Virus record (IMG/VR): IMGVR_UViG_3300020420_000671
DNA: 64,000 bases
Origin: a virus
Lineage: Duplodnaviria; Caudoviricetes
Strand: one strand, 5' to 3'
In this document: positions 4,625 to 7,110 of the stretch, one piece after another
Layout: every line of letters starts with the position of its first letter
Numbering within the stretch: position 1 is the stretch's first letter
Program-made: the position numbers and the translations under genes
The notes under the pieces: model-generated
The model's database searches: none
What the model was told of the DNA's origin: nothing
What the model saw: the letters and a program-made list of their open reading frames with translations, nothing else

Positions 4625-5042
4625 CCCACTTTACGTAAAACAGCTAGAAGAAATAATTAGTGCTGGATTAAAAGAAGTTCCTATTCCTTATCAAAAGGGG
4701 AACAGTATTAGAATAAAGCATATGATTGTTAGAAAACATACGAATGGATACAGAGTGTTTGATTGTAGATGTAATAAACATATTGAGACAGTATTCTGTA
4801 AAACTGCGGCTGTTGCTATAGCAAAAGGCCTAGCTGAAAACAAGAATTATCGCATTGATCCTGTGTTATCATTAGATCATCAAGTATCTAAACACTACAA
4901 TGACGCTTTATATGCCAAAAGATCTATGAAAAACGCCGAAAATGAAGATACTAAAACTACAGCAGAGATTAAATACGATATAGCTGTTGATAAGGCTTGG
5001 TCCTGTTTAGACCAATTAGAAAAGTTTATCTTTGATAAATAA
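4614..5042 (+). CDS. Hypothetical phage protein
   Basis: ATG at 4614 preferred over the track's TTG at 4608. Confidence 0.65.
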   Translation: MKYNPLYVKQLEEIISAGLKEVPIPYQKGNSIRIKHMIVRKHTNGYRVFDCRCNKHIETVFCKTAAVAIAKGLAENKNYRIDPVLSLDHQVSKHYNDALYAKRSMKNAENEDTKTTAEIKYDIAVDKAWSCLDQLEKFIFDK

Positions 5043-5071
5043 ATATGTAGTTGCAATACAAGGAATAAAAC

Positions 5072-5857
5072 ATGCTAATAAATGAGTTTTCAAAACCAGT
5101 CACGCTTGAATCCTTAAATGAGAATCTAGCACAAAGATTTGGACAAAAAATAGATGTATCTAAGTTCACACGTGAGCAACTTGAAGATGCCCGTAACAAA
5201 CTTAGAACACAAATATCACAAATAGAAACTAACGAAAGTTATGAAGCTGTAAACACAGACTCATATCAGAAAAGCAAACTATTCCTTGATATCATAAATC
5301 AAGCAATTGATGAAATGGACAGCTCATCAGAAAACACAACTCCTGAAACAGAAGAAAAAATAGTTGAAGGCGCAGAGGAACAATCAGCTCTTGTTATGGC
5401 CGCAAAGGACATGGTAGACAGAGTTACAGGCTGGATGGAAGACACAGCAGAAATGCAGACTGAATCTATGCTAGAAATAGGCGATAAGATTAGAGATGAA
5501 TATGGCATTGACAAATCCGAAGAGTTTATTAATACGGTAAAACCGGCACTCGAAGGATTGTTTACTTCATTGGAAAGCACTAGAGACTCCTTGACAGGTG
5601 GCGTAGCTATTTTGACAGGAGAAGGCGCACCACAAACAATGGGCGATGAAGTTCCTGCGGAGGAACCAGAGATGGAACCTACAGTAGATGATGAAGCAGG
5701 AGCGGAAGCAGAAGACCCAGTAGGCGACGAGTTTGGAGCATCAGGCCCAGCGGCAGGTGAGGACGAAGAGGCGGATAGGCCCAAACGAGAAAGTGTAGAA
5801 TTAAGTAAAAGATTAGGTTTGCTCTTAGCAGACTCAAAAAAAAAGGCTATAGATTAA
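5072..5857 (+). CDS. Acidic coiled-coil protein (scaffold/core-like); ends just past a slippery A9G run
   Basis: SD AGGA; late box at 5036-5045; E/D-rich C-terminal half; ends ...DSKKKAID*. Confidence 0.75.
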   Translation: MLINEFSKPVTLESLNENLAQRFGQKIDVSKFTREQLEDARNKLRTQISQIETNESYEAVNTDSYQKSKLFLDIINQAIDEMDSSSENTTPETEEKIVEGAEEQSALVMAAKDMVDRVTGWMEDTAEMQTESMLEIGDKIRDEYGIDKSEEFINTVKPALEGLFTSLESTRDSLTGGVAILTGEGAPQTMGDEVPAEEPEMEPTVDDEAGAEAEDPVGDEFGASGPAAGEDEEADRPKRESVELSKRLGLLLADSKKKAID

Positions 5858-6150
5858 GCGAAGACGTCAAAGACAATCTTACCCAGATATTACATCTTAA
5901 GCACAAAGAAGGCGCAACCAGTATAAGCTGGGATGACCTAAATAATTTCCTAGACAACGTAGGCAGTGAACATTACGACAGAGAAAGTTTTGTCAAGGCT
6001 TATAACAATGATCCAAGAGTACAGGAATTGGTATCAAGTTTTGATGAAAATGGTGTGGTGCTTAAAGGGGGCGAAGCACCACAGTCAGAACCAGAAGACG
6101 ATACAGTGGACCAAATGGCTTCAAGAGCCGCAAAATCAGCTTTAAAATAA
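5845..6150 (+). CDS. Start-less 101-codon ORF in the -1 frame (GYRLSEDVKDNLTQ...DQMASRAAKSALK*), probably a frameshift extension of 5072..
   Basis: Not in the track. Frame open from 5809 (after TAA 5806) to TAA 6148-6150, with no ATG/GTG/TTG in its first ~70 codons. Fills the gap exactly to the next promoter. Confidence 0.7.
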   Translation, partial: GYRLSEDVKDNLTQILHLKHKEGATSISWDDLNNFLDNVGSEHYDRESFVKAYNNDPRVQELVSSFDENGVVLKGGEAPQSEPEDDTVDQMASRAAKSALK

Positions 6151-6153
6151 CAC

Positions 6154-6182
6154 TTGACAATTAAGATAAATTAGTGTAGTAT
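6154..6182 (+). promoter_or_regulatory. Sigma70-type promoter
   Basis: TTGACA-17nt-TAGTAT. Confidence 0.7.
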
Positions 6183-6199: not shown

Positions 6200-6487
6200 A
6201 TGAGCGAACGAACAAAAGAAGAAATAGTAGAAAATATTAATTTCATTGTAGATAAACATATTCAACCTGCTGTAGCACAGCATGGAGGAGTGGTCAAGCT
6301 AGAAGATTTTGATTTGGAAACAGGCGATGCCCTTATGCTTTTATCAGGTGCCTGCTCTGGTTGTGCCAGTAGCAGTATCACACTCAAGTTAGGTGTTGAA
6401 AATATGTTGAAGCATTACATTCCAGAAGTTCAAAAAGTCACTGGTATGGACGATCCAAATTCTACAGTAGATCCTTATTATGTTTAG
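6200..6487 (+). CDS. nifU: NifU/NfuA C-terminal-domain Fe-S scaffold protein
   Basis: IQPAVAQHGGVV...LSGACSGCASSSITLKLGVE (CxxC) NifU signature. Confidence 0.85.
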   Translation: MSERTKEEIVENINFIVDKHIQPAVAQHGGVVKLEDFDLETGDALMLLSGACSGCASSSITLKLGVENMLKHYIPEVQKVTGMDDPNSTVDPYYV

Positions 6488-6501: not shown

Positions 6502-7110
6502 ATGGCTTTAATAAACAAAGTAAATGACATAGAGTTTTATGCCGTGCCAAATCAGCATTGGGTGGTATCGGCTTTTTATCCTGACTATAAGGATTTAGAA
6601 AAGTTTTTTGATTTCACAGATATAGATATCAGTGAAAAGACTGCTACAGTAAATGGCCTACAGCGTCCTATCAAGAACGAAGAATGGACCGAAGAAAGAT
6701 CCAAATATATGGATTGGATCTTAGATACATGTAAACAAGCACAAATTCCTGTAACTGCTATTAAAGAAAGACAAAGCAAAGACCAAAGTGGTTGGAACTC
6801 TGCTTGGACTATTAATTATTTTCCAGGCGGTTGGCAGGCAGGACATTTTCATTCTACAGATAGAGCGGCACAATCTAACAAACGTTTTATATCAACAGTT
6901 ATGTTTTTTGATGACATAAAACCTACAAAAGATAATCGTTGGAATGGATGCTTGTATACCTTATTACAAAATCCTTATGGATATACATATGATCATAAGT
7001 TTCACCCAAAAGCAGGACAAGTAATAATGATGGATGATAGGGTATGGCATGGAACTTATCCTACAGAAGACAATCGTAGAGTTTTTGTAAGCGATTTTGA
7101 TGTAGAATGA
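6502..7110 (+). CDS. Putative 2OG-Fe(II) oxygenase superfamily protein
   Basis: GHFHS...DDRVWHGTYP...RRVFV pattern of the DSBH oxygenase fold. Confidence 0.55.
   Translation: MALINKVNDIEFYAVPNQHWVVSAFYPDYKDLEKFFDFTDIDISEKTATVNGLQRPIKNEEWTEERSKYMDWILDTCKQAQIPVTAIKERQSKDQSGWNSAWTINYFPGGWQAGHFHSTDRAAQSNKRFISTVMFFDDIKPTKDNRWNGCLYTLLQNPYGYTYDHKFHPKAGQVIMMDDRVWHGTYPTEDNRRVFVSDFDVE

What the first reader, a model, noticed from the sequence alone, without database searches (positions are those of the whole stretch)
5806..6150. Probable programmed -1 frameshift at A_AAA_AAG extends the acidic head protein
Seen: the 5072 ORF reads TCA AAA AAA AAG GCT ATA GAT TAA, placing A AAA AAG at 5839-5845 in the correct phase. 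The -1 frame is open from 5809 to TAA 6148-6150 and encodes a plausible 101-aa domain with no usable start codon; the next promoter begins 3 nt after its stop. Known: A_AAA_AAG is the highly shifty heptamer of E. coli dnaX and many IS elements; A9 runs can also cause transcriptional slippage. Inference: two isoforms (261 aa and about 359 aa) at a fixed ratio, a recoding event in a head-region rather than tail-chaperone gene. I found no strong 3' stimulatory structure or well-placed internal SD.
Basis: partly seen in the sequence, partly recalled or inferred. Interest (0 to 1): 0.75.

Follow-up and report, generated by a model that had tools for sequence, protein, structure and literature searches.

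The report
Conserved A9 recoding site, phage gene
A gene of an uncultured giant marine phage ends in a run of nine A's at which some products slip back one base and gain a small winged-helix-like domain. The split is kept in every related phage examined, so it is a real, built-in way of making two proteins from one gene.

Summary
ORF 5072-5857 (261 aa) ends TCA AAA AAA AAG GCT ATA GAT TAA, and the -1 frame is open from 5809 to TAA 6148-6150. A fusion would be 359 aa.

It is not an assembly error. In 76 distinct junctions from about 230 marine viral contigs (55-99% protein identity), the conserved downstream domain is always in the -1 frame and has no start codon. The run is A9 in 74 (A8 once, A10 once), and the 0-frame stop follows 0-12 codons later.

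Elsewhere in 470 kb of related DNA, A or T runs of 8 or more are nearly absent.

Two more distant relatives encode the same two proteins as separate genes. One uses an ATGA stop/start overlap at exactly this spot.

It covaries and was replaced by an unrelated hairpin in another clade. Such hairpins are reported to stimulate RNA-polymerase slippage and to attenuate -1 ribosomal frameshifting. I therefore rate polymerase slippage slightly above ribosomal frameshifting; both may contribute.

The added domain models as a winged helix. A [LIVMF]-x-E motif follows the junction.

The head-protein assignment is unproven.

This scan had already noted the same recoding in other genomes (e1-5320213).

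The parts
5072..5857 (+). Gene A, 0-frame product of 261 aa. It is acidic and all-helical: an N-terminal bundle, a long helical hairpin, a disordered acidic stretch, and a C-terminal helix that ends at the slip site.
   Evidence: There are 4080 homologues; the 26 aligned all end at SKKK plus 0-3 aa.
5816..5834 (+). RNA hairpin with an 8-bp stem and a 3-nt loop. It ends one base (C5835) before the A run.
   Evidence: One search gives -8.1 kcal/mol. Covariation: 90.6% of cells are paired against 17-54% when the partner is slid, 4 of 8 pairs show changes on both sides, and 0 of 500 shuffles reach the covariation score.
5836..5844 (+). A9 run, the slip site. It contains the in-phase heptamer A_AAA_AAG at 5839-5845.
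   Evidence: The run is A9 in 74 of 76 distinct related junctions.
5855..5857 (+). The 0-frame stop, TAA. The +1 frame stops at TAG 5850-5852.
5845..6150 (+). The -1 frame extension (module B), 101 codons plus a TAA stop. It has no start codon of its own.
   Evidence: It is conserved in the -1 frame in all relatives where it is detected.
5854..5862 (+). L-S-E motif just after the junction, read in the -1 frame. It is a candidate prohead-protease-type site.
   Evidence: A [LIVMF]-x-E motif lies within 10 aa of the junction in 65 of 66 distinct extensions, against 8% of control windows. Its function is inferred.
5869..6066 (+). Folded core of module B with winged-helix-like topology (H-S-H-H-S-S).
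   Evidence: pLDDT about 88. The best PDB matches are all winged-helix domains but are weak, E 0.08-0.7.
6103..6147 (+). Conserved C-terminal tail of B, motif TVDxMA(K/S)RA, placed after a variable acidic linker.
   Evidence: Alignment A1. It is disordered in the model.
6154..6182 (+). Promoter-like site TTGACA-17-TAGTAT ahead of the NifU-like gene at 6200-6487. It marks the end of the A/B unit.
   Evidence: 10 of 12 matches; a consensus match only. NifU is from Pfam, E 2e-20.

Best explanation
Gene A (5072-5857) and the start-less module B (-1 frame, to 6150) form one recoded gene. Most products stop at 5857 and give the 261-aa protein. A set fraction reads ...SKKK-GYRLSED... and gives a 359-aa A-B fusion carrying a winged-helix-like domain.

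In this phage's clade I think the frame change comes mainly from RNA polymerase slipping on the nine A's, which yields an mRNA with ten A's. The nascent hairpin that ends one base before the run would assist this. Ribosomal -1 slippage on A_AAA_AAG, within the same run, probably contributes as well. Both routes give the identical protein.

Shown here: the recoding is conserved, the exact A9 length is conserved, the hairpin covaries, and B has no start codon. Inferred: which machine slips, the ratio of the two products, and the function of the fusion. For function, I propose that A carries B into the prohead, where B is released at the L-x-E site.
For: Recoding is real.
- Module B is in the -1 frame in every relative where it is detected, at 28-98% identity.
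- 76 distinct junctions all carry the A run.
- In some relatives a -1-frame stop lies 10-13 nt before the 0-frame stop, so the shift can only occur within the run.
- No continuous form appears among the 120 best of 4080 homologues.
- Near-identical DNA occurs in runs of 10 studies.

Evidence favouring polymerase slippage.
- The run is A9 in 74 of 76 junctions.
- The ninth A is the wobble base of a codon whose amino acid varies (TCA, CCA, GGA).
- A variant, TCG AAA AAA AAA G, keeps nine A's in another phase.
- A hairpin abuts the run in 24 of 46 distinct contexts, placing them in the best 5% of background positions. It covaries. Another clade replaced it with an unrelated hairpin carried on a 9-nt insertion.
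- Literature: nine A's or T's give efficient bacterial RNA-polymerase slippage, and a 5'-adjacent nascent hairpin stimulates slippage (PMC5009743). A hairpin next to the E site attenuates -1 ribosomal frameshifting on 70S ribosomes (PMC6321510).
- Runs of 8 or more A or T are almost absent elsewhere in 470 kb of related DNA: A8 5 observed against 65 expected, A10 or longer 0 against 15, T8 or longer 0 against 12.
Against: - An in-phase X_XXY_YYZ heptamer is present in all 76 junctions, although any run of 8 or more contains one.
- The base after the run is G in 74 of 76, while the -1-frame amino acid there varies (Val, Gly, Asp, Arg). This fits selection for the especially shifty A_AAA_AAG.
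- One relative has only A8 but keeps the heptamer (L170).
- One clade lacks the hairpin. It has GGAGG 11 nt upstream of the heptamer and a stop codon directly after it, a dnaX-like ribosomal arrangement.
- In the known hairpin-stimulated case (Roseiflexus IS630) a base is deleted, whereas here one must be added or two removed.
- For the window sequence alone the hairpin is not exceptional: z -1.4, and 19 of 200 shuffles fold as well.
Confidence: 0.5

Rival explanations
1. One reading: purely or mainly ribosomal -1 programmed frameshifting. Tandem tRNA-Lys slippage on A_AAA_AAG (5839-5845) fuses B to A. Under this view the upstream hairpin tunes the efficiency downward or is unrelated to the shift.
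For: The heptamer is in phase in the window and in 69 of 76 junctions, and the other junctions have A_AAA_AAA or A_AAA_AAC. G after the run is conserved at the nucleotide level. The A8 variant L170 keeps the heptamer. The hairpin-less clade has GGAGG 11 nt upstream, the spacing at which an SD-like element stimulates dnaX -1 frameshifting (from established knowledge of dnaX), plus an adjacent stop.
Against: The window has no 3' stimulator and no well-spaced SD. Tandem slippage at A_AAA_AAG does not need the two extra 5' A's, yet they are conserved even across amino-acid changes. The conserved, re-invented 5' hairpin sits next to the E site, where hairpins attenuate -1 frameshifting (PMC6321510). 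Nine A's alone are reported to be enough for efficient polymerase slippage (PMC5009743).
Confidence: 0.38
2. Module B is translated on its own from a non-canonical start, or by re-initiation after the stop of A. No fusion protein exists.
For: In two more distant relatives B is a separate gene with its own ATG. One follows TAA after 5 nt (L254) and one uses an ATGA stop/start overlap (L256).
Against: In the window the first ATG/GTG/TTG in the B frame is at 6028, inside the conserved fold. In many relatives the -1 frame opens only 10-13 nt before the 0-frame stop and begins CTC AAA AAA AAA, which offers no start. The A9 run is conserved exactly where the ATG of the overlap would lie.
Confidence: 0.04
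3. Homopolymer sequencing or assembly error. The true gene has A10 and is one continuous ORF.
For: Homopolymers are error-prone in some sequencing platforms.
Against: 74 of 76 distinct junctions from independent metagenomes have A9. The single A10 (L159) is followed by TAG and still needs a -1 shift. The 26 aligned protein-cluster representatives all end at SKKK. RNA-library contigs that cross the run show no indel.
Confidence: 0.01

Closest known systems
Thermus thermophilus dnaX and Citrobacter rodentium / Yersinia tssM: programmed transcriptional slippage at a run of A's
   Same: A run of 9 or more A's in the sense strand near the end of an ORF. Added A's in the mRNA give two length variants at a set ratio (PMC5009743; PMC4256274).
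   Different: Here a covarying hairpin abuts the run, only the -1 frame is open, and the gene belongs to a phage. No RNA data yet show heterogeneous transcripts.
Roseiflexus IS630 transposase: nascent-hairpin-stimulated transcriptional realignment (Penno et al. 2015, as reviewed in PMC5009743)
   Same: A hairpin lies directly 5' of a roughly 10-nt slippage motif, with terminator-like geometry. Here the stem ends 1 nt before the A9 run.
   Different: The IS motif is heteropolymeric (T5C5) and loses one base. Here the motif is a homopolymer and the productive change is +1 (or -2).
E. coli dnaX tau/gamma and IS-element -1 ribosomal frameshifting at A_AAA_AAG
   Same: The same heptamer, in phase. 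One clade of relatives also has an SD-like GGAGG 11 nt upstream.
   Different: The window has no SD at stimulatory spacing and no 3' hairpin. The frameshift product is the longer protein. The run is nine A's rather than six A's plus G.
Phage structural-gene frameshifts that add a C-terminal domain: T7/T3 gene 10A/10B, Lactobacillus phage A2, Listeria phages (PMC5009743)
   Same: A -1 shift at the end of a phage gene gives a minor, C-terminally extended isoform.
   Different: Those genes are major capsid proteins with surface extensions, often Ig-like. Here the carrier is an acidic helical protein of unknown role, and the added module is winged-helix-like and is a separate gene in some relatives.
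Retroviral Gag-Pol logic and T4 internal proteins with a capsid-targeting sequence
   Same: As an inference: fusing B to A could co-package a minor protein at a fixed ratio and release it at an L-x-E site like those cut by the T4 prohead protease (the T4 site preference is from my own knowledge).
   Different: No protease gene, virion proteomics or cleavage data are available here. The motif match alone is the evidence.

Membership tests
-1 programmed ribosomal frameshift site (dnaX / IS type) | In-phase X_XXY_YYZ slippery heptamer | tested here: met
   A_AAA_AAG at 5839-5845. A heptamer is in phase in all 76 junctions, but any A run of 8 or more contains one.
-1 programmed ribosomal frameshift site (dnaX / IS type) | SD-like element 10-14 nt upstream of the heptamer | tested here: not met
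   In the window the nearest AGG is about 20 nt upstream, inside the hairpin. The feature is met only in another clade, which has GGAGG at 11 nt.
-1 programmed ribosomal frameshift site (dnaX / IS type) | Stable stem-loop or pseudoknot 5-8 nt downstream of the heptamer | tested here: not met
   5846-5965 folds with z -0.47. No common 3' structure appears across 46 contexts.
Programmed transcriptional slippage at a homopolymer | Run of about 9 or more A or T, with length conserved independently of phase | tested here: met
   A9 in 74 of 76 junctions. The phase-0 variant keeps nine A's, and the wobble A is kept across Ser, Pro and Gly codons.
Programmed transcriptional slippage at a homopolymer | mRNA population with extra A's relative to the DNA | tested here: inconclusive
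   Only assembled contigs of RNA libraries were available. Two cross the run without an indel, but contigs drop minority variants.
Nascent-hairpin-stimulated slippage (Roseiflexus IS630 type) | Conserved hairpin directly 5' of the slippage motif | tested here: met
   Hairpin at 5816-5834. Covariation is, placement statistics, and the unrelated replacement hairpin in clade C.
Nascent-hairpin-stimulated slippage (Roseiflexus IS630 type) | Heteropolymeric motif with a unidirectional one-base deletion | tested here: not met
   The motif is a homopolymer. A one-base deletion would lead to TAG 5850-5852 in the +1 frame, not into B.
T4-type capsid-targeted, protease-processed internal proteins | N-terminal targeting leader and L/I-x-E cleavage sites | tested here: inconclusive
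   A begins MLINEF...SLNE. [LIVMF]-x-E follows the junction in 65 of 66 extensions against 8% of control windows. The evidence is at motif level only.
T4-type capsid-targeted, protease-processed internal proteins | gp21-type prohead protease in the genome, and presence of the protein in virions | tested here: inconclusive
   PF03420 was not found in five related contigs, but these are 21-33% complete and the control genomes gave no hit either. No proteomics data exist.
Winged-helix domain | H1-S1-H2-H3-S2-S3 topology with a significant structural match | tested here: inconclusive
   The topology is present at pLDDT about 88. All top PDB hits are winged-helix domains, but with E 0.08-0.7 and TM 0.4-0.6.

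The most novel reading that the evidence does not exclude
A large group of abundant marine giant phages uses hairpin-assisted programmed transcriptional slippage on a homopolymer, a combination not yet described. Different clades have swapped the stimulator: two unrelated 5' hairpins in some, and an SD-like element plus an adjacent stop in another. The recoding replaced an ATGA stop/start overlap between two genes. It works like Gag-Pol: it fuses a winged-helix protein to a prohead-targeted carrier so that a fixed small number of copies is packaged and then released at an L-x-E protease site.
Probability: 0.25. Interest if true: 0.75.

Novelty: new member of a known kind. Interest (0 to 1): 0.6.

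Why it matters
Recoding sites are routinely mis-annotated as two genes or as a truncated gene. Here thousands of metagenomic gene calls stop at SKKK and leave the winged-helix module as an orphan.

The family offers a natural comparative series for studying what makes a slippery run efficient. The same A9 run occurs with a covarying 5' hairpin, with an unrelated replacement hairpin, with an SD-like element plus a stop, and as an ATGA overlap without any run. The series could separate polymerase effects from ribosomal effects.

If the fusion is a packaging device, it also shows how giant T4-like phages set the dose of a minor internal protein.

Tried and rejected
- **Cultured-phage searches.** blastn of the locus and tblastn of A, of B and of a stand-alone B homologue (P0135) against the 50,697 cultured-phage records found nothing. 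Only the A homologue from L256 hit part of one jumbo Sinorhizobium phage protein.
- **Family libraries.** Pfam gave nothing for A or B. PHROGs gave only a partial match of A to phrog_14154, 'virion structural protein' (E 7e-10).
- **RNA evidence.** Four metatranscriptome runs were laid on the locus. Only assembled contigs were available. Two cross the run with A9 and no indel, which cannot show or exclude minority A10 transcripts.
- **Structure searches for A.** Swiss-Prot models gave only non-specific helical matches. BFVD gave uncharacterised phage proteins.
- **ESM Atlas for B.** Only unnamed viral clusters were returned.
- **Prohead protease.** The PF03420 search in five large related contigs was uninformative, because the contigs are fragments and the control search also found nothing.
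- **Late-promoter motif.** TATAAATA / ATAAATA is not enriched in the window, so expression timing is unresolved.
- **Order of events.** In the tree of A proteins the ATGA-overlap relative sits on a long, unresolved branch. I therefore cannot say whether two separate genes or the recoded gene came first.
- **Whole genome.** None is held for this window.
- **Long-protein hits to B.** The hits P0145 and P0170 carry unrelated repeat families (HTH_48, TPR). I take these and the other multi-stretch long hits to be spurious.

Full report
**1. The observation**

- ORF 5072-5857 encodes a 261-aa acidic protein, here called A. It ends TCA AAA AAA AAG GCT ATA GAT TAA.
- The nine A's are at 5836-5844, and A_AAA_AAG (5839-5845) is in phase.
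- The -1 frame has a stop at 5806-5808 and is then open to TAA 6148-6150.
- The +1 frame stops at TAG 5850-5852.
- The first conventional start codon in the -1 frame is TTG at 6028, which would leave 40 aa.
- A shift on the run gives 258 + 101 = 359 aa.
- A TTGACA-17-TAGTAT match begins at 6154.
- This is the only A or T run of 9 or more in the 64-kb window, against about 4.6 expected from a first-order model.

**2. The split is real and conserved**

Three scans of IMG/VR returned about 230 loci from marine viral contigs that encode relatives of A. A fourth, with module B as query, added 23.
- In every locus where the downstream module (B) is detectable, it lies in the -1 frame relative to A. 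This holds from 98% down to about 28% identity.
- Collapsing identical sequences leaves 76 distinct junctions. Of these, 74 carry exactly nine A's, one has A10 and one has A8.
- The A10 case (L159) reads TCA AAA AAA AAA TAG and still needs a -1 shift. The A8 case (L170) reads TCT AAA AAA AAG.
- The 0-frame stop follows the run's last lysine codon by 0-7 codons (12 in L094, which has two runs). The 0-frame tails are not conserved.
- In several clades a -1-frame stop lies only 10-13 nt before the 0-frame stop. The frame change must therefore happen within the run.
- A search of 5.8 billion proteins found 4080 homologues of A. The 120 best are 250-312 aa long, apart from one 397-aa protein with an internal insertion. 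All 26 that I aligned end at SKKK plus 0-3 residues. None is a continuous A-B protein.
- Near-identical DNA is present in sequencing runs from 10 studies.
- An assembly error is therefore excluded for practical purposes, and so is independent initiation of B.

**3. Selection on the run**

- In 71 distinct related loci (470 kb), A8 runs occur 5 times against 65 expected. A10 or longer occurs 0 times against 15. T8 or longer occurs 0 times against 12.
- The 75 A9 runs found are essentially the recoding site itself. Long A or T runs are purged everywhere except here.
- The ninth A is the wobble base of the codon before the lysines. It stays A although that codon changes amino acid (TCA Ser, CCA Pro, GGA Gly).
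- In five junctions the run has moved by one base (TCG AAA AAA AAA G) yet is still nine long.
- The base after the run is G in 74 of 76 junctions, while the -1-frame codon it starts varies (GTA, GGC, GTC, GGA, GGT, GAC).

**4.

- Bases 5816-5823 pair with 5827-5834 (8 bp, loop CUU, -8.1 kcal/mol). The stem ends one base before the run.
- For the window sequence alone this is unremarkable (z -1.4).
- Across 20 distinct sequences of the two largest clades, 90.6% of cells are paired, against 17-54% when the partner column is slid. Four of eight pairs change on both sides, and no shuffle out of 500 reaches the observed covariation score.
- Some compensating changes alter amino acids in concert: Leu to Gln on one arm and Ala to Thr on the other.
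- A third clade lost this pairing. It carries a 9-nt insertion that forms an unrelated hairpin (AAGTAGC/GCTACTT and variants) at the same position.
- In 24 of 46 distinct upstream contexts, a hairpin ending within 3 nt of the run scores in the best 5% of all positions in the same locus.
- Two groups lack a compact hairpin. One of them has GGAGG 11 nt before the heptamer and a stop codon directly after AAG.
- No conserved 3' structure was seen.

**5. Which machine slips**

The sequence can support either mechanism, and both give the same protein.

Points favouring RNA-polymerase slippage:
- Nine A's or T's give efficient slippage by bacterial RNA polymerase, and Thermus dnaX uses this (PMC5009743). 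So does tssM (PMC4256274).
- A nascent hairpin directly 5' of the motif stimulates slippage in Roseiflexus IS630 (same review).
- A hairpin next to the ribosomal E site attenuates -1 frameshifting on 70S ribosomes (PMC6321510).
- Exact A9 length and the re-invented hairpin fit this mechanism best.

Points favouring ribosomal -1 frameshifting:
- The conserved G makes A_AAA_AAG.
- The A8 variant retains the heptamer.
- One clade has a dnaX-like SD element and an adjacent stop.

I put polymerase slippage as the main route in this clade at about 0.5 and mainly ribosomal frameshifting at about 0.38. Both probably contribute. The RNA data I could reach were assembled contigs, which cannot show minority transcripts.

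**6. What is joined**

- **Protein A.** The model is all-helical. It has an N-terminal bundle, a long helical hairpin (residues 101-182, pLDDT 93), a disordered acidic stretch, and a C-terminal helix that runs into the slip site. Its only family link is a partial match to phrog_14154, annotated as a virion structural protein. Structural neighbours are uncharacterised proteins of large phages.
- **Module B.** It models with helix-strand-helix-helix-strand-strand topology at pLDDT about 88. All the best PDB neighbours are winged-helix domains, but the matches are weak (E 0.08-0.7). After a variable acidic linker, B ends in a conserved TVDxMA(K/S)RA tail.
- **The junction motif.** Immediately after the junction there is a [LIVMF]-x-E motif (LSE in the window) in 65 of 66 distinct extensions, against 8% of control windows. 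From my own knowledge this matches the site preference of the T4 prohead protease. It also echoes the M-x-hydrophobic-x-E N-termini of neighbouring genes noted by this scan (e1-5401379).
- **Possible function.** This suggests, but does not show, that A carries B into the prohead and that B is then cut free.

**7. Relatives with two genes**

- An exhaustive profile-free search with B found 76 cluster representatives. Many are stand-alone proteins of 85-118 aa with their own Met.
- In L254 a 35%-identical A homologue ends with TAA, and B (MRFSEF...) starts 5 nt later.
- In L256 the region is syntenic with the window up to nrdA and nrdB. There a 53%-identical A ends CCA AAA TGA, and the ATG of B overlaps that stop (AAAATGAAAA).
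- In both relatives B is in the -1 frame. The recoding run therefore sits exactly where relatives have a stop/start junction, and two or three substitutions interconvert the two states.
- The tree does not resolve which arrangement is older.

**8. Novelty**

I found no paper describing this gene or its recoding. The kind of event is well known. The pairing of a homopolymer run with a covarying 5' hairpin, and the turnover of stimulators between clades, would be new if polymerase slippage is confirmed. This scan has already reported the same recoding in other genomes (e1-5320213, e1-5392704, e1-5392708). That follow-up independently reached the winged-helix reading.

Noticed in passing
L094:3828-3860 (also L097-L099): Two tandem copies of TCA-A9-G lie 12 nt apart. 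A -1 shift at the first run hits TAA at once, and only the second run leads into module B. This looks like a 24-nt duplication of the slip site.
   Followed up: partly
P0128 (215-aa metagenomic protein fragment): This fragment contains the core of A, then a Ser-rich stretch that looks like the acidic region read in another frame, then module B in the same ORF. It is probably an assembly indel or a variant with an earlier frame change.
   Followed up: no
window 6200-6487 and 6502-7110: A NifU-like gene (Pfam E 2e-20) and a 2OG-Fe(II) oxygenase-like gene lie directly after the A/B unit, behind a TTGACA-17-TAGTAT promoter-like site at 6154-6182.
   Followed up: no
window 5035-5045: Two overlapping ATAAATA motifs, which resemble T4-type late promoters, lie about 30 nt upstream of the A start codon. 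The motif is not enriched in the window, so this is only a hint about timing.
   Followed up: partly
L024-L103 (470 kb of related loci): There is strong general avoidance of A or T runs of 8 or more in these phages, apart from the recoding site. T7 runs are more frequent than expected (77 against 32), probably because homologous sites are counted repeatedly.
   Followed up: partly
BFVD hits: A-like and B-like structural neighbours have UniProt accessions from the same series, one pair consecutive (A0A345MN63 / A0A345MN64). This suggests that the two genes lie in the same genomes, perhaps side by side, as separate genes in some deposited phages. It was not verified.
   Followed up: no
window 5612-5640: A promoter-like TTGACA-17-AACAAT match lies inside gene A. 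It is probably chance, because the count of such matches in the region is at the shuffled expectation.
   Followed up: no
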